Shown here piece after piece: positions 14,128-60,670 of a stretch of DNA of 62,833 nt (within the stretch, counting starts at the first letter, position 1; the number at the start of each line of letters is the position of its first letter). A model generated the notes under the pieces. The model searched no databases and was not told the DNA's origin. It was given only the letters and a program-made list of their open reading frames with translations. The position numbers and the translations under genes are program-made. The stretch is from contig JAHQWH010000009.1 of NCBI GenBank assembly GCA_029856105.1, forward strand, positions 1 to 62,833, written 5' to 3'. The stretch is from Promethearchaeia archaeon (GTDB lineage Archaea > Asgardarchaeota > Lokiarchaeia > Sigyniarchaeales > SOKP01).

Positions 14128-14679
14128 CTATTGTGTCAAAATACTGGGAACTTCAGCTATATTATTTAATGCATTTTCAAAATCCTTATAGTCAGGTAAT
14201 GATTCAAGACAAACTGAGATGTTTCCCAAATTGTTGTTTCTTTCTACAACGAACTTCTTAATCGTTGGAATAATTATACCCGCACAAATCTTTGCGTTAA
14301 ATCCGATTACTTCTTTCGATATTGGAGGATAAGCGATTGAACGTATCCCTTCTTTATCGGCTAATTTCAGCGAATTCCAGATCGCTAACATCAATTTTTT
14401 TTGATCGTGACCTGCTCTTACATGGATAATAAATTTGGCATTTAAATTGCCGCCAGAGGTAATTACAGCATCCCCAATTGGAACATTTGATATCTTACTA
14501 ATAATACGATTACATTCAACTTGTACTTTATGACCTGCTCCTCTCAATACTCGACACCTTAAGGTACCACTAGGCAAAAGGCGACTATTTGTCGGAATGG
14601 CAATTGCATCGTAGTCAGCATTAATTAAATCGCCGACAAAAATTTCTAAAACCGTGTTATTGATCGTTAATTGATTCAT
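14128..14679 (-). CDS. Macro (Appr-1-p/ADP-ribose-binding) domain protein with degenerate catalytic motifs
   Basis: GDL, GDAVITSGGNLNAKFIIH, SIAYPPIS; NAAN and GGGV are replaced. Confidence 0.8.
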   Translation of the reverse strand: MNQLTINNTVLEIFVGDLINADYDAIAIPTNSRLLPSGTLRCRVLRGAGHKVQVECNRIISKISNVPIGDAVITSGGNLNAKFIIHVRAGHDQKKLMLAIWNSLKLADKEGIRSIAYPPISKEVIGFNAKICAGIIIPTIKKFVVERNNNLGNISVCLESLPDYKDFENALNNIAEVPSILTQ

Positions 14680-14817: not shown

Positions 14818-15303
14818 TTATTGATTTATGCGCTTAACTTTTCTAACGAGCGCCTCTACATTTTTTTCGACGATTTCTAATATTTCGTCGTATCGTTTTT
14901 TCCCGGTTTTATAAGGATCTGGAATGTTTATATCCTTTTTATCTGCCCCATTAAATTCTTTCAAAGTATAAAGTTTCTGTTTTAATTGTTCTTGTAAATC
15001 TCTAAATCGTTTTTTAATTTTTGTTAAATGATATCGTTCCATACCTATTATAAGATCTTGTTTTTCTATCAATTCTCTTGTTATGACTTTAGGTTGAAAA
15101 TCACTTATTTCGATACCTTTTGATTGTATATAATCTATTGTCTCTGGTTGAGCGTAATCAAAAGCATCGTGCCACCCTGCGGAATCGAAGACAACTCCTT
15201 TTAACTCATATTTTTTAGCGTAAAAAGCCCCCAGATGTTGTGCTGCTGGCGAACGACATGTGTTTGCGTAACATATGAACAGAATTCGTTTTATTTTCGT
15301 CAT
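14818..15303 (-). CDS. Low-molecular-weight protein phosphatase (LMW-PTP/YwlE family)
   Basis: CYANTCRSP P-loop, DSAG, DLIIGME, IPDPY. Confidence 0.92.
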   Translation of the reverse strand: MTKIKRILFICYANTCRSPAAQHLGAFYAKKYELKGVVFDSAGWHDAFDYAQPETIDYIQSKGIEISDFQPKVITRELIEKQDLIIGMERYHLTKIKKRFRDLQEQLKQKLYTLKEFNGADKKDINIPDPYKTGKKRYDEILEIVEKNVEALVRKVKRINQ

Positions 15304-15322
15304 TTTTATTCTTACTAAGTAG

Positions 15323-15828
15323 TTATGATTCGGTTTGATTTATCCGTATTATTTTTTTAATCATTTTTTCGATATTTTTATCAATTATTTTAAGAACTTT
15401 CTGATAAGTCTTAGTACTGGCGTAATATGGATCTATTATATCTAAATCATCAGTTTCTCCGTTAAATTCTTTTAAAGTAAACAATTTTTTGCTGAAGTCG
15501 TTAACCCCTTGATAATTTTCTCTAATATCATTAACATGTGACTTTTCCATCGTTATGATTAAGTCTTGTTTTTCTAACAATTTTCGATTGATTATTTGCG
15601 GTTGAAAATCAGAGTGTTTAATGCCTTTAGAATTTAAATATTCTTGAGATTCGGGTTGCATGTAAGAAAATGCATTTATAAAACCAGCGCTCTCAAAAGT
15701 TAAATTAACATCATATTTCTTGGCGTAATCTCGTGCTAAGTATTCAGCGGGGGGGCTCCTTGCTGTATATCTGTTGTTTTTTAAACAATTCCAGTACAAA
15801 CAAAGAGAACAAATTTGATTCTTTGCAT
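15323..15828 (-). CDS. LMW protein phosphatase interrupted by a 20-nt BHB intron; join(15789..15828, 15323..15768), 161 aa, MQRIKFVLFVCTGNTARSPPAEY...
   Basis: True ATG at 15828 gives FVLFVCTG then a stop; removing 15769-15788 restores CTGNTAR (CX5R) and a length equal to the neighbouring paralog. Confidence 0.85.
15769..15788 (-). other. Putative mRNA intron, 20 nt (UUGUUUAAAAAACAACAGAU), relaxed bulge-helix-bulge
   Basis: Outer helix UUGUA/UACAG, bulge AU^A, central CUGG/ACAG (one G.A), bulge AA^U, inner stem UGUUU/AAACA. Confidence 0.75.
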
Positions 15829-15921
15829 AATTCTTTTAGTATAATTAGCAAAATATCTTAAATTTTTCTATAATTAGATTGATCAGCTAGTCGAATTTCA
15901 CGAGTAAAACAAAATTCTTGT

Positions 15922-16152
15922 TTATTTTTTTAGTGTTTTCTTTAGCTCATCTATTTGTAGTTCTAATTTAGATTTTTCTATTTGACAAGCATTTAGTTGA
16001 TTCTGGAGCTTTTGTATTTCTCCTACAACTTTATTTGAGTTCAAAAGAGTATCATATAACTGAGTCTTTAATTTTTTCACATCTAGTTCAAGATTTTTTA
16101 TATATTGCTCATCATTTGGTTCATATGGCCATTCTTCTGACATGCTTTTCAC
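15922..16152 (-). CDS. Small coiled-coil hypothetical protein
   Basis: Heptad-rich 76 aa ORF co-oriented with neighbours. Confidence 0.6.
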   Translation of the reverse strand: MKSMSEEWPYEPNDEQYIKNLELDVKKLKTQLYDTLLNSNKVVGEIQKLQNQLNACQIEKSKLELQIDELKKTLKK

Positions 16153-16202
16153 ATAGTTTTATTTTTAATTTTATTATTAGAACTATTCATATTAGAGAAT
16201 TT

Positions 16203-16889
16203 TTATTTGAGAGAGACCTTTTGCGTTTCTGGGTTTCGCACAAAATACCCGGTTGTGCCACATTCTTGACATACTTGGGTATTATCATCAAGAAATACCA
16301 TAGATTTCTTAAAACACATGGGACAGATGAAATGAATAAGCTCTTGTTCATTCTTAGAGAATTCTTTTATCATTTCAATCTTGGGCGTTATTGGAGTCTG
16401 AATACAAAACATACAAAAACAGCGTCTTTTCGTATCTTCAAGGATATCATTCAATTCGTTTAGATTTGCATCGCATTCCACCGTTAATTCCAATTTAAAG
16501 TTTTCCACCGCATCAATCCCATCCTCAATCCCAAAACCAGTTGTTAGGTCAATGTCCGCAATAATTCTTATATCAAGTCGTTTTAATTCTATTTTACGCA
16601 TTGCTGCCCATTTGGCAAAAGCAGCAGAGAAGCAACCAGCAAAACCAGCCAAACAATAGTGCACTGGATGAACAGCAGTACCTCCGCCCCCAAGAATAAT
16701 AGTTTCGTCTGTTTGCACTGTTATTTCACCCGCTCTTTCTGTTTTTAATTTTACTTCGAATTGTGGTCCATAATCTACTTCTAATCTCCATTTACCATTT
16801 ATTTCTAAAGCCTTTTTACATTTTGATCGATCTTTGCGGTATGTATCTTGTACTTTCTTGAATCCCTCTACATCAATTCTGTTTAACAT
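16203..16889 (-). CDS. OsmC/Ohr family protein with C-terminal zinc ribbon
   Basis: DETIILGGGGTAVHPVHYCLAGFAGC, RRC; tail CPMC...CQECG. Confidence 0.85.
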   Translation of the reverse strand: MLNRIDVEGFKKVQDTYRKDRSKCKKALEINGKWRLEVDYGPQFEVKLKTERAGEITVQTDETIILGGGGTAVHPVHYCLAGFAGCFSAAFAKWAAMRKIELKRLDIRIIADIDLTTGFGIEDGIDAVENFKLELTVECDANLNELNDILEDTKRRCFCMFCIQTPITPKIEMIKEFSKNEQELIHFICPMCFKKSMVFLDDNTQVCQECGTTGYFVRNPETQKVSLK

Positions 16890-16901
16890 AGATTTCCCTC
16901 A

Positions 16902-17435
16902 TTATAAGACTTCTTTATACATAGAATATAATTTTTCTATTATCGCCTTAAATGCATTGCCTACTCCATTTCCTGTTTTTGCAGATGTTCTGTATACTCC
17001 TAAATAATCTTCTTTCGCACTTAATTCCTCAAAACTACTTTCATCTATTTCAGTATCTCCAACTAAATCTGTTTTATTTGCGAATATTATAATTGGGATA
17101 TCTTCGCAATACTGATTGATTTCATTATACCATTTCATAACATTCTTTAAGCTTTCATTTCCCTTATTATTTCGTTCTAATGAATAAACTATTATTACTG
17201 CTTTACTATCCTCATAGAACGAGGAACGAATGATTTGGAAATCATCTTGACCAGCTAGATCCCAGAAGAAAAGCTTAATATCATCTCCATTTATCTTTTG
17301 TTCATAAATAGAAAATTGAGCTCCGATTGTAGAGATATAATCTTCTTGAAATTCTCCTTGAGTATACTTTTTAATAAGGGAGGTTTTTCCTACTCCACCA
17401 TCCCCAATTATCGTTATTTTAAAAACAAATCTCAT
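16902..17435 (-). CDS. Rab-like small GTPase
   Basis: GDGGVGKT, TIG, WDLAGQ, NKTD, SAKTG. Confidence 0.93.
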   Translation of the reverse strand: MRFVFKITIIGDGGVGKTSLIKKYTQGEFQEDYISTIGAQFSIYEQKINGDDIKLFFWDLAGQDDFQIIRSSFYEDSKAVIIVYSLERNNKGNESLKNVMKWYNEINQYCEDIPIIIFANKTDLVGDTEIDESSFEELSAKEDYLGVYRTSAKTGNGVGNAFKAIIEKLYSMYKEVL

Positions 17436-17607
17436 AAAATTCTCTCAATAAATATGATTTAAATGTTAATTTAACTTTGTTCATAAATTCTATATAAAAT
17501 TATCTGCATACAAGTCAAATTTAATAAAACTTATTTACAGAAGTGTAAATTATTAAACCATACAATTAAATTTTCATAAAAATAAGTAATCCTAATGCTG
17601 ATATATT

Positions 17608-19254
17608 ATGAAAAAGAAATCAATTAAAGCGAGATTTATTAATACATTCATTAGAGATGTTAATATCTCTAAAGAATCATTTTTTTATTTGTTTTTAACG
17701 CTATTTGCATTAATCTTAATGGTGGAGGTAACTGTACTCAGATATGTCTTATTAAATGAAATAAGTCCTATGCTAGAATTTGAAATAATCTTAGCCCTCT
17801 TTATAATAGCATTTGGTTTTATTATATCAGGATATTTAGTCGACCGAATAAAGAATAAAACTAAGAATTTTAACATTATATTTATTGTATGTATAGCTGG
17901 TCTATTTTTAAGTACATTTAAAAACACTTTCTTTGATCATTTTGGAATATTGATTGGTCTACTTGGATTAATTCAATTAACTTCTCTGTGGTTTTCTACA
18001 TTGATTCATAACACAACAATATTAAATAGAGGACGGATAACAGCATACTTATTAATACTTTGTATCGGATCAAGCGTAATTAGCATATTTTTCACTTATT
18101 TTGATCTTTTATATAATACTTTTTCCGTATTTATGGCTATTATTTTATTTTTTATTTATAAAAGTTCAAAAAAAAATCAATATTTAGAAAACGAAAAACA
18201 TTTAGAATCAACAACCAAATTTAAGAAAATAATATTTGAAAAACATTTTTTTAGGTATTCTTCTAGTTTCTTCGTTTTAAGTTTTATTTTGGGTGATTTA
18301 GTAGCAAGATTTACGCTTCACATAAATTTATTTATTTTTTCAATAGCAACTATATTATACCTTGTAGCTGCTGGTTACTTTTTAGATAATATCGGGAGAA
18401 AAGTATCACTTGTCCTAGGTATACTTCTTCTTTCATTTTTTCTTATTACTTATGGTTCATATATAGAATCGCCAACTATTTTTGGATTACCTCGGGAAAT
18501 TTTCCTTTCAATACATTATGCCTTTTCGTTAGCACCACTATTATTAGCTATCTTCACGATTTCCGGAGATTTTTCAACTGAAAGAGAGAATATAAGATAC
18601 AGAGGCCGCATTAATGGACTTTTCATTTCTTTAGTATTTTTTGGTGTCATTTTTGGATTTTTCTTCAGTCGCACGTTAAACCTTTTATATTTATTATATC
18701 CTGAATTAAATATTATTATTCCAGATTTTCCAAATAGGTTGAACTCCTTTTTACTGGTAATTTTACTTGTATGGATGATGGCAATGAAAGAAATTTTAAT
18801 TTCTAAAGAAAAAAATTGGTCATCAGCAATAATAAATCTTTATGTTTTTAGCGTTAGTGGGGTTGGGCTTTACTACCATAATTTCAAGAAAAGTGCCCAA
18901 GGGGAAGAAAAAGAGAAGAAGAGAGAGATGGATGAAGATATTATTTCTGGTGCTTTGACAGGTGTTGTAGGAATCATTTCTGAAATTACTCAAAGCAAAA
19001 AACAGTTAAGGAAAATTGACAAGGAGGGTTATGATCTTCTATTCTCTTTTGGAAAATACCATATTGCCTGCTTAATAACAAAAATAGATTTACCAGTGTT
19101 ATTAAAGAAACTTGATGAGTTTTCAAAAGATTTTGAAGTAAAATTCGGGAAGTATCTTAAAAAGTTTGCTGGAAATGTATCCCCCTTTGAAGATACTAAG
19201 TATTTAGTTGAAAAATACTTCAATCAGAAATATTCTGATTTATTTGGGGCATAA
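17608..19254 (+). CDS. Multi-pass (MFS-like) membrane protein fused to a C-terminal longin-like domain
   Basis: About 12 TM segments with GYLVDRI/GYFLDNIGRK loops; C-terminal LYVFSVSGVGLYYHNF...IISGALTGV...FAGNVSPF. Confidence 0.65.
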   Translation: MKKKSIKARFINTFIRDVNISKESFFYLFLTLFALILMVEVTVLRYVLLNEISPMLEFEIILALFIIAFGFIISGYLVDRIKNKTKNFNIIFIVCIAGLFLSTFKNTFFDHFGILIGLLGLIQLTSLWFSTLIHNTTILNRGRITAYLLILCIGSSVISIFFTYFDLLYNTFSVFMAIILFFIYKSSKKNQYLENEKHLESTTKFKKIIFEKHFFRYSSSFFVLSFILGDLVARFTLHINLFIFSIATILYLVAAGYFLDNIGRKVSLVLGILLLSFFLITYGSYIESPTIFGLPREIFLSIHYAFSLAPLLLAIFTISGDFSTERENIRYRGRINGLFISLVFFGVIFGFFFSRTLNLLYLLYPELNIIIPDFPNRLNSFLLVILLVWMMAMKEILISKEKNWSSAIINLYVFSVSGVGLYYHNFKKSAQGEEKEKKREMDEDIISGALTGVVGIISEITQSKKQLRKIDKEGYDLLFSFGKYHIACLITKIDLPVLLKKLDEFSKDFEVKFGKYLKKFAGNVSPFEDTKYLVEKYFNQKYSDLFGA

Positions 19255-19257
19255 ATG

Positions 19258-19752
19258 TCATTTTTTATTTAGTTCGATAATTTTATCAATGGATTTAATA
19301 ATTCCATCTTCGATTCTTTTAAGAACTTTATTATATTCATTTTCCTCTAAATAGAAAGGATCTTTTATTTCTAGATTGTAAGTTTCTCCAGCAAATTCTA
19401 AGAGTAAAAAAGTCTTTTCATCCAGATCTTTTAACTGCTTGAATCTTCTCTTCAATTTTCTAACGTGGTATTTCTCTTCGAAACATAGAATAAGGTCTTG
19501 TTTAATTATCAGTTCTTCATCGGCATCCTTGGCTTGAAAATCGTCCATTTCGACGCCTTTAGATTTAAGATATTTTAACGTGCCTTCTTGAGGTTGCTCA
19601 TAATAGTGGTAAAGTCCTGCCGAATCAAAAGCTATATCTTTTAATTCATCTTTATATATTGTCTGCTGTAACCGCTTAGCAAAATATTCCGCAAATGGTG
19701 ATCTGCAGGTATTACCACTACATAAAAAAAGTATGTTTTTAATTTTAGGCAT
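19258..19752 (-). CDS. LMW protein phosphatase (LMW-PTP/YwlE family)
   Basis: CSGNTCRSP, DSAG, IKDPF. Confidence 0.92.
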   Translation of the reverse strand: MPKIKNILFLCSGNTCRSPFAEYFAKRLQQTIYKDELKDIAFDSAGLYHYYEQPQEGTLKYLKSKGVEMDDFQAKDADEELIIKQDLILCFEEKYHVRKLKRRFKQLKDLDEKTFLLLEFAGETYNLEIKDPFYLEENEYNKVLKRIEDGIIKSIDKIIELNKK

Positions 19753-59449: not shown

Positions 59450-60670
59450 ATGTTAATATCATTCCCTAACATGGGGCCTAACTGGGTAGCTTTTAAAACG
59501 CTATTTACAAGCCTTGGTCTAGATGTTGTAGTTCCAGATCCAACGAATCGAGAAGCGATAAAGATTGGAGTCAAGTATTCCCCCGAATTCGTGTGCTTCC
59601 CGTTTAAAGCGACTATTGGAGATTTCGTGAATGCTATAGAAAAGGGAGCAGATACGCTAATCATGGCAATAGATTGCGGACCGTGTAGATTTGGCTTTTA
59701 CGCGAGCGTTCAAGAACGCATTTTAAAAGATATGGGTTATAAAGACATTACGGTTATCCCCCTTGACCAAGCAGACCTTTTAGATTTTAAATGGGTCAAA
59801 ACTCTTCAAGAAGTTAGCGGTCGAAAGGATTTATTTATGTATTCAAAATTCGTTAAGGCTGTTATTATTTTTCTAAAGAAAGCTAAACTGTTAAACGATA
59901 TTCAAACTGCCGAAGGTATCTTCCGAGCTTACGAGCGTAATCAAGGAGATACAACGGATTTGATTAAAAACTTATTGGATAAGCTTGATCAAGCTAATAC
60001 GCTCCCAGAATTGAGAAAATTTAAAAGCGTTATTAAGCAAGATTTTAGCAATTTAGATATTGATAAAACCCGAACTCCTCTACGGGTGGGTGTTTCGGGG
60101 GAGATTCACATTAACTTGGAACCCTATGTAAATTTAGATATCCGTAGAAAGCTGGGTGAGATGAACATTGAAGTACACCAAAGCTTGAGCTTATACGATT
60201 GGGTCGTCCATAAATTCCATTTAAATTATCACAGAAAGTGGTTGGAACACCTTTCCCATCCATACATGCCCATGGACATTGGCGGTGAAAGTTTTGAGCT
60301 TTTAGCTTAAAACCATCTTTGCCAATGGGTGTTAGGTGAATATATAGACAAAGCTCAAGCGGGGTTTGATGGCTTCGTTCATCAATATCCGTTCTTATGC
60401 CTCCCCGAAGTGACGGCTCGGACGATTTTAACTAATAAACTTAAGGGAATTTACGATCTTCCCATCATTTACTTCTCTTTCGACGAACAGAGTGGATTAG
60501 GTGGCTTCAGAACTAGGTTAGAAGCATTTTCAGATCTAATGTATGGTCGTAGGAATAAAGAAATTGAAACTAACGCCAAATTCATATCAAATGGTAATAA
60601 AAAGATTTATCCGCATTATGGCAATTTATTTTATAATGAATGCGTTCAATTAATTCAAAATTCGGTTTAA
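59450..60670 (+). CDS. 2-hydroxyacyl-CoA dehydratase-like / PlsR-like subunit interrupted by a 30-nt BHB intron; join(59450..60289, 60320..60670), 396 aa
   Basis: The two track ORFs (59450-60310, 60329-60670) are halves of one protein; the spliced junction PMDIGGE^CQWVLGEY aligns without gaps to paralog PMDCGGEAQWNMGSY. Confidence 0.9.
60290..60319 (+). other. Putative mRNA intron, 30 nt (AGUUUUGAGCUUUUAGCUUAAAACCAUCUU), canonical bulge-helix-bulge
   Basis: Outer helix CAUUGGC/GCCAAUG, bulge UU^U, central GGUG/CAUC, bulge AA^A, inner stem GUUUUGAGC/GCUUAAAAC; contains an in-frame UAA. Confidence 0.9.

What the first reader, a model, noticed from the sequence alone, without database searches (positions are those of the whole stretch)
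15763..15798. Second BHB-type micro-intron, in the catalytic P-loop of an LMW phosphatase
Seen: on the minus strand the real start gives MQRIKFVLFVCTG and then hits a stop, while the rest (TARSPPAEY...) is in another frame. Only removal of exactly UUGUUUAAAAAACAACAGAU (15769-15788) recreates the invariant Asn (GGA A|AT ACA = CTGNTAR) and a 161-aa protein matching paralogs of 161 and 164 aa. Those two cut points fall after the second nucleotide of two 3-nt bulges (AA^U, AU^A) flanking CUGG/ACAG (one G.A mismatch), closed by UUGUA/UACAG and UGUUU/AAACA. Protein homology and RNA structure predict the same splice sites independently. Inference: a relaxed-BHB intron.
Basis: partly seen in the sequence, partly recalled or inferred. 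Interest (0 to 1): 0.9.

Follow-up and report, generated by a model that had tools for sequence, protein, structure and literature searches.

The report
20-base tRNA-type intron in Asgard phosphatase
A phosphatase gene of an Asgard (Lokiarchaeia-type) archaeon is broken inside its active-site loop by a 20-base insert shaped like the substrate of the tRNA-splicing enzyme, so its messenger RNA very probably has to be spliced, which the papers I could search report inside only one other archaeal coding sequence (cbf5); no spliced RNA was seen here.

Summary
Observation confirmed, interpretation supported, splicing itself not observed. Removing 15788-15769 (minus strand) is the only tested deletion that restores the CxGNxxR loop and a 161-aa protein. 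The locus is identical in three independent assemblies. Related genes carry 13 different inserts of 20, 21, 22 and 33 nt at this site (15 alleles, two paralog clades). Each has a stop or frameshift and keeps the bulge-helix-bulge (BHB) fold, with compensatory changes. Exon 2 is open in all (one cut by its contig end); dN/dS is 0.14-0.31 in close pairs. The genome encodes an alpha/beta EndA with the broad-specificity loop, and RtcB. I found six more such inserts in this genome. The scan had already noted this class in at least 38 other genomes.

The parts
15789..15828 (-). Exon 1 (40 nt): ATG, 13 codons including catalytic Cys11 (15798-15796), plus the first base of the Asn14 codon
   Evidence: same exon 1 in L123, L141, L248
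15769..15788 (-). 20-nt intron: third base of bulge 1, 5-bp hairpin (15787-15775) containing the in-frame TAA (15783-15781), 3' strand of the central helix (15774-15771), first two bases of bulge 2
   Evidence: unique frame-restoring deletion; 13 different inserts at this site in relatives; exact intron-less alleles
15323..15768 (-). Exon 2 (446 nt): rest of the P-loop (N14, T15, A16, R17, S18), DPYY acid loop, stop
   Evidence: Pfam LMWPc E 3.6e-20; dN/dS 0.09-0.22 against close relatives
15756..15807 (-). Whole bulge-helix-bulge: 12-bp exon-exon helix, central helix 15794-15791/15774-15771, bulges 15790-15788 and 15770-15768
15747..15871 (-). 5' segment (upstream leader, exon 1, intron, first ~21 nt of exon 2) that matches intron-bearing allele L123 and not the otherwise closest intron-less relatives; crossover near 15747
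   Evidence: 117/121 nt to L123, then 15/21 and 13/21; G017/G026/G005 14/21, then 21/21 three times
14818..15303 (-). Adjacent intron-less LMW phosphatase paralog, 161 aa
19258..19752 (-). Second intron-less paralog, 164 aa; in G020 and G018 a member of this paralog clade carries the same-site intron
60290..60319 (+). The other BHB insert of this window (30 nt, in-frame stop, perfect geometry); context, not part of this gene

Best explanation
This is a true mRNA intron of the archaeal tRNA type. The pre-mRNA folds into a relaxed bulge-helix-bulge. The cell's (alpha-beta)2 splicing endonuclease cuts after the second base of each 3-nt bulge, releasing 20 nt. RtcB joins the exons, which the 12-bp exon-exon helix holds together. 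The joined mRNA reads C11-T-G-N-T-A-R17 and gives a 161-aa low-molecular-weight phosphatase; unspliced it gives a 15-residue peptide. SHOWN: the sequence, the unique frame-restoring deletion, conserved and covarying fold in relatives, purifying selection, presence of the enzyme genes. INFERRED: transcription, cleavage, ligation, enzyme activity. The intron looks like a tolerated passenger, not a regulator. It is present in a minority of relatives and gained or lost by homologous recombination in the conserved P-loop codons (inferred from crossovers; direction not resolved).
For: Unique deletion. Identical in three other assemblies. 15 distinct intron-bearing alleles with 13 insert sequences of 20, 21, 22 and 33 nt; all keep ATG and exon 1, 14 have a full exon 2 with the DP loop and one runs off its contig. 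On 11 aligned alleles, 94.3% of cells pair, 4 pairs change on both sides, covariation 0.153 against 0.074 in shuffles (0/500) and at most 0.042 in slid controls; 8 of 11 have G-C where this allele has G.A. The bulge bases predicted to be intronic vary (U/A/G; AA/AU/AG) while exonic ones do not. Exon-2 dN/dS between close intron-bearing alleles is 0.14-0.31. Intron-less alleles carry exactly the predicted junction (L029, L249, L253). EndA alpha has Y141/H149/K180 and K58 aligned to K44 of the Aeropyrum specificity loop; a second paralog lacks the His; RtcB is present. PMC5829648 states that only (alpha-beta)2 and epsilon2 enzymes cut relaxed motifs and that Asgard have the former with this loop.
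Against: In this allele the needed register is 1.7-2.8 kcal/mol above competing folds, and the neighbouring registers would remove 21 or 22 nt and leave the frame broken, so splicing may be inefficient. Two intact paralogs lie nearby and could mask a dead copy. Relatedness inflates the covariation statistic (tool caveat). Exonic bulge bases are also constrained by the protein.
Confidence: 0.9

Rival explanations
1. The intron family is real, but this 20-nt allele (G.A in the central helix, U able to close the first bulge) is poorly or wrongly spliced and the gene is becoming a pseudogene behind two intact paralogs.
For: Competing registers fold as well or better. Eight of 11 aligned relatives have the perfect pair. 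If the intron segment arrived recently, dN/dS has had little time to show decay.
Against: The 20-nt G.A form occurs on diverged exon-2 backgrounds (L123 84% nt, L248 92% nt, L141), open wherever sequenced. L102, in another clade, has the same AAU plus ACAG combination with dN/dS 0.23-0.26. Most cbf5 introns also have unconventional BHB motifs, and the cDNAs tested matched the predicted cuts (PMC2738675).
Confidence: 0.06
2. The insert is skipped during translation (programmed frameshift, read-through or ribosomal bypass), not spliced.
For: There is a stop codon in a hairpin and an A-run; some 21-nt alleles have matching AAT codons on either side.
Against: Inserts of 20, 21 and 22 nt need three different frame moves. 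A frameshift or read-through would put about 7 residues into the C-X5-R loop. This allele has no landing codon that yields Asn (the exon-2 frame reads AGA TAT ACA). Bypass does not explain selection on an exon-exon helix or 3-nt bulges.
Confidence: 0.02
3. A neutral hairpin insertion has inactivated the gene (plain pseudogene), or the insert is an assembly error.
For: Most relatives lack the insert (28 of the 31 best orthologues listed).
Against: Identical in three other assemblies. Fifteen alleles without a disabling change in exon 2, dN/dS well below 1, and compensatory pairs.
Confidence: 0.02

Closest known systems
BHB intron in the cbf5 pre-mRNA of Desulfurococcales and Sulfolobales (Watanabe 2002; Yokobori 2009, PMC2738675)
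   Same: Short ORF-less intron inside a coding sequence, unconventional BHB, cuts between the 2nd and 3rd bulge base, hetero-oligomeric EndA in the host, variable intron interior, lineage-specific absence.
   Different: Other host gene (LMW phosphatase) and other phylum. One of at least seven in the genome rather than a single case. Presence varies between genomes 92-95% identical and between paralogs, with crossovers beside the intron. Splicing is not shown by cDNA.
BHB intron in the 5' UTR of Haloferax volcanii HVO_1309 (PMC7714728)
   Same: EndA substrate in an mRNA.
   Different: That one is untranslated; this one splits the Asn codon of the catalytic loop, so protein synthesis depends on its removal.
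Archaeal tRNA introns, abundant in Asgard (PMC11291895; bioRxiv 10.64898/2026.10.13.758758)
   Same: Same motif and enzymes, similar length. The spliced junction folds into a stem with a 7-nt loop and the intron sits after the 6th loop base, like position 37/38.
   Different: The host is an mRNA. The text of that preprint has no occurrence of 'mRNA' or 'cbf5'. The insert does not resemble this genome's tRNA-Ser(GGA) intron beyond the forced complement.
IRE1/RtcB splicing of XBP1/HAC1 mRNA in eukaryotes (PMC13149111; details from my own knowledge)
   Same: Spliceosome-independent removal of a short intron that changes the reading frame, cut by a protein nuclease and ligated tRNA-style.
   Different: Different nuclease and RNA motif; regulated by stress, whereas nothing here indicates regulation.

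Membership tests
Archaeal BHB (EndA-spliced) intron | Two 3-nt bulges on opposite strands around a 4-bp helix, with outer exon and intron helices | tested here: met
   Met in relaxed form (3 Watson-Crick pairs plus G.A). G-C at that pair in 8 of 11 aligned alleles; 94.3% of cells paired; 4 compensatory pairs. This allele's register is not the minimum-energy fold.
Archaeal BHB (EndA-spliced) intron | Cutting after the second base of each bulge regenerates the functional RNA | tested here: met
   Same boundaries as the unique frame-restoring deletion; holds for 20, 21, 22 and 33-nt alleles; product matches natural intron-less alleles.
Archaeal BHB (EndA-spliced) intron | Host encodes a splicing endonuclease able to cut relaxed motifs, and a ligase | tested here: met
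   EndA alpha with triad and L1/CSL lysine, second paralog without the His, RtcB E 8.7e-168. The heterotetramer is inferred from sequence only.
Archaeal BHB (EndA-spliced) intron | Spliced RNA exists in the cell | not testable with these tools
Archaeal BHB (EndA-spliced) intron | EndA cleaves the precursor in vitro at both sites | not testable with these tools
   Bench experiment.
cbf5 intron family | Located in the cbf5 pseudouridine synthase gene | tested here: not met
   Host gene is Pfam LMWPc; works like the cbf5 intron but is not a member of that family.
Group I / group II self-splicing intron | Ribozyme core of hundreds of bases | tested here: not met
   20 nt; no Rfam match at E<=1 in 15300-16200.
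Spliceosomal intron | GU...AG ends | tested here: not met
   Ends are UU...AU here and vary among alleles.
LMW phosphotyrosine/phosphoarginine phosphatase fold (PF01451) | C-X5-R P-loop with Asn, and a downstream DP acid loop | tested here: met
   Only after splicing: C11...R17, N14, DPYY. The usual second Cys is Ala in this whole clade. Below all NCBIfam equivalog cut-offs, so the substrate is not assigned.

The most novel reading that the evidence does not exclude
This Lokiarchaeia genus routinely splices protein-coding mRNAs with the tRNA machinery. Its micro-introns are a mobile polymorphism that spreads between species and between paralogs by short-tract homologous recombination carrying the intron together with the ~40 exonic bases it needs to fold, with no intron-encoded mobility protein. 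This would be an observable route of intron gain and loss in close prokaryotic relatives of eukaryotes.
Probability: 0.55. Interest if true: 0.88.

Novelty: new variant of a known kind. Interest (0 to 1): 0.74.

Why it matters
The searchable literature knows one archaeal coding-sequence intron (cbf5) and one 5' UTR case (PMC7714728). Several in one Asgard genome would mean protein genes there depend on RNA splicing, by a route unrelated to the spliceosome. Gene callers mis-annotate such genes: this one is on record as a 158-aa protein without its catalytic Cys. The locus is also a test case for how BHB introns arrive, which a 2026 preprint calls the central open problem for Asgard tRNA introns. 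Intron-bearing, intron-less and recombinant alleles coexist among close relatives, and a ~60-nt RNA is enough for an in vitro assay.

Tried and rejected
(2) Looking for a spliced product among database proteins: no listed full-length protein carries this exon 1. Full-length proteins with intron-type flanks traced to an assembly labelled METAG (L249) or of unstated type (L253), so they count as intron-less alleles, not as spliced RNA. (3) First genome-wide scan by BHB pattern plus ORF repair showed no enrichment over shifted deletions. Its codon filter was too strict and rejected the target and the perfect 60290 insert, so it is uninformative. (4) Homology-based census at low score gain was noise (21 BHB of 223, 16.7 expected). 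Only the 17 sites with gain >= 35 are usable, and the reference covered under half of one distant genome plus own paralogs, so six more inserts is a lower bound. The target itself was not recovered by this census (exon 1 too short). (5) Origin from a tRNA intron: the junction loop resembles a Ser(GGA) anticodon loop, but that tRNA's intron is dissimilar; rejected. (6) Translation of exon 2 from TTG 15799 (the 158-aa database protein) lacks the nucleophilic Cys and is blocked by a stop in the 21-nt alleles; rejected as the functional product. (7) The upstream segment has no second copy in this genome, so the donor was not an own paralog. (8) PMC3064391 was not held. No structure or complex prediction was run; neither bears on the question.

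Full report
VERDICT. The insert is real and is very probably (about 0.9) a bulge-helix-bulge (BHB) intron removed from the mRNA by the tRNA-splicing endonuclease. All evidence is comparative; no spliced RNA was observed.

ORGANISM. The window is contig C10 of a 3.66-Mb, 92%-complete genome. Homologues are named Lokiarchaeota or Promethearchaeota by their sources. The five GTDB contigs matching the intron-plus-flank pattern are titled Promethearchaeota (4) or Hermodarchaeota (1). I infer an Asgard archaeon of Lokiarchaeia type.

THE OBSERVATION. On the minus strand the ATG at 15828 reads 13 codons to Gly13, then Ile-Val-stop (TAA 15783-15781). The rest of a Pfam LMWPc protein (E 3.6e-20) lies in another frame. 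Among all deletions of 1-61 nt starting 20-69 nt into the gene, only 15788-15769 restores C-x-G-N-x-x-R-S and a 161-aa frame. Under the same constraint none of 1500 random 20-nt placements folds as well (-11.8 kcal/mol). The locus is letter-identical in two Logan assemblies and one JGI assembly, which excludes an assembly error or chimera.

RELATIVES. Of 29 orthologues fetched from other genomes of the genus, 27 lack an insert and two (G010, G022) carry different 21-nt inserts at the same base. Pattern searches added more. An unfiltered recount gives 15 distinct intron-bearing alleles with 13 insert sequences of 20, 21, 22 and 33 nt. Each contains a stop or shifts the frame. All keep an ATG and exon 1; 14 have a full exon 2 of 143-153 codons with the DP loop, and one runs off its contig. 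On 11 aligned alleles the named structure has 94.3% of cells paired and four pairs changed on both sides: one in the exon helix, one in the central helix, two in the intron stem. The covariation score is 0.153, against 0.074 for shuffles and at most 0.042 for slid controls; relatedness inflates this. Exon-2 dN/dS (NG86) between close intron-bearing alleles is 0.14-0.31, and 0.09-0.22 between this gene and its nearest relatives. Natural intron-less alleles (L029, L249, L253) carry exactly the predicted junction.

MACHINERY. The genome has two EndA paralogs. One has Y141, H149 and K180, and a loop whose K58 aligns with K44 of Aeropyrum EndA, the residue PMC5829648 ties to broad specificity. The other lacks the His and is presumably the structural subunit. 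RtcB is present. That paper reports Asgard EndA as (alpha-beta)2 with this loop, so this part is expected, not new.

MECHANISM. Inferred: the precursor folds, EndA cuts at 15789/15788 and 15769/15768, the long exon helix keeps the halves together, and RtcB ligates. The product folds into a stem with a 7-nt loop, with the intron site after the sixth base, the geometry of a canonical tRNA intron. The catalytic Cys is in exon 1 and the Arg and Asp are in exon 2, so no active enzyme can be made without splicing. The protein is nearest to LMW tyrosine and arginine phosphatases among solved structures but passes no NCBIfam cut-off; its substrate is open. A weakness specific to this allele: compared with the 21-nt alleles it lacks one C, so the fourth central pair is G.A, and U15788 can pair instead. 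The needed register (-11.8) competes with folds at -13.5, -11.4 and -14.6, and cutting the neighbouring registers would not restore the frame. The same G.A form persists in L123, L141, L248 and L102, which argues it is tolerated.

THE INTRON TRAVELS WITH ITS FLANKS. On a tree of exon 2 (58 genes, first 10 codons left out) the intron label needs 7 changes, at least 6 forced by well-supported branches, and occurs in two paralog clades. The 39 exonic bases around the site are 31-38/39 identical to all other intron-bearing alleles, even those with about 50% identity in exon 2, but only 23-26/39 to the intron-less relatives that are 93-95% identical in exon 2. Against L123 the window matches 117/121 bases through leader, exon 1, intron and the first 21 nt of exon 2, then falls to 15/21 and 13/21. 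Against G017, G026 and G005 the first 21 nt match 14/21 and the next three bins 21/21. L244 is the reciprocal type: a G017-like intron-less exon 1 (38/40) joined to the intron-type start of exon 2 (20/21 to the window, 15/21 to G017). Selection for the helix explains part of the flank conservation, but not sharp crossovers between genomes this close. I infer homologous recombination in the conserved P-loop codons. Whether it brought the intron in or removed it from the others is not resolved; no root or formal recombination test was applied. Because close relatives do without the intron, a regulatory role is unlikely.

GENOME CONTEXT. A homology-based search that did not use the motif (2 Mb of a distant complete genome plus own paralogs) gave 17 high-gain sites. 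Seven of them, six distinct plus one exact duplicate, are 30-33-nt inserts that fold as BHB at -10.8 to -22.0 kcal/mol, each better than all 40 local controls. An eighth is weaker (-7.5), and the other nine do not fold as BHB (several look like gene junctions). One is the window's 60290-60319. I also confirmed that the histone, cobO, elf1 and FGGY-kinase frames named in earlier notes are broken as described, without testing them further. At 20 nt the phosphatase intron is the shortest I saw here.

COMPARISON AND NOVELTY. It works like the cbf5 intron (PMC2738675) and meets every sequence-testable criterion of a BHB intron, but it is not a member of the cbf5 family. PMC7714728 lists cbf5 and one 5' UTR case as the only mRNA substrates. 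Five literature searches found no report of Asgard mRNA introns; subscription journals are mostly not covered. The scan itself has noted this class repeatedly (70 findings in at least 38 genomes). One note says that joined RNA was seen for other genes; I could not check that and do not count it. What this locus adds is phase diversity at one site and direct signs of recombinational shuffling. Rating: new variant of a known kind, interest 0.74.

Noticed in passing
window 60290-60319 (+) and G000 C26 near 2544 (-): 30-nt perfect BHB insert with in-frame stop; the same sequence and the same frame lengths occur on contig C26, suggesting a duplicated or redundantly binned segment (contamination 6%).
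   Followed up: partly
G000 C74 8114(-), C45 30690(-), C191 9161(+), C191 37095(+), C39 31937(-); weaker C34 47133(-): Further homology-defined 30-33-nt inserts with BHB folds.
   Followed up: partly
window 15769-15881 versus L039 3574-4421: G005 is 92-93% identical on both sides but has a 238-aa membrane-protein gene here; the start of the phosphatase gene is a rearrangement hot spot.
   Followed up: partly
window 14818-19752: Cluster of three LMW phosphatase paralogs with a Macro-domain gene (14128-14679), an OsmC-like gene and a small GTPase (16902-17435); the interrupted clade has Ala for the second P-loop Cys.
   Followed up: no
P0003, P0128: Database proteins with a G022-type start joined to a G017-type body, further mosaics at this locus.
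   Followed up: no
G000 whole genome: ARAGORN finds only 23 tRNA genes, most with introns and several mis-called, consistent with many non-canonical tRNA introns.
   Followed up: no
P0122 / window 15323-15799 (-): Public gene calls record this gene as a 158-aa protein from TTG 15799 without the catalytic Cys.
   Followed up: yes
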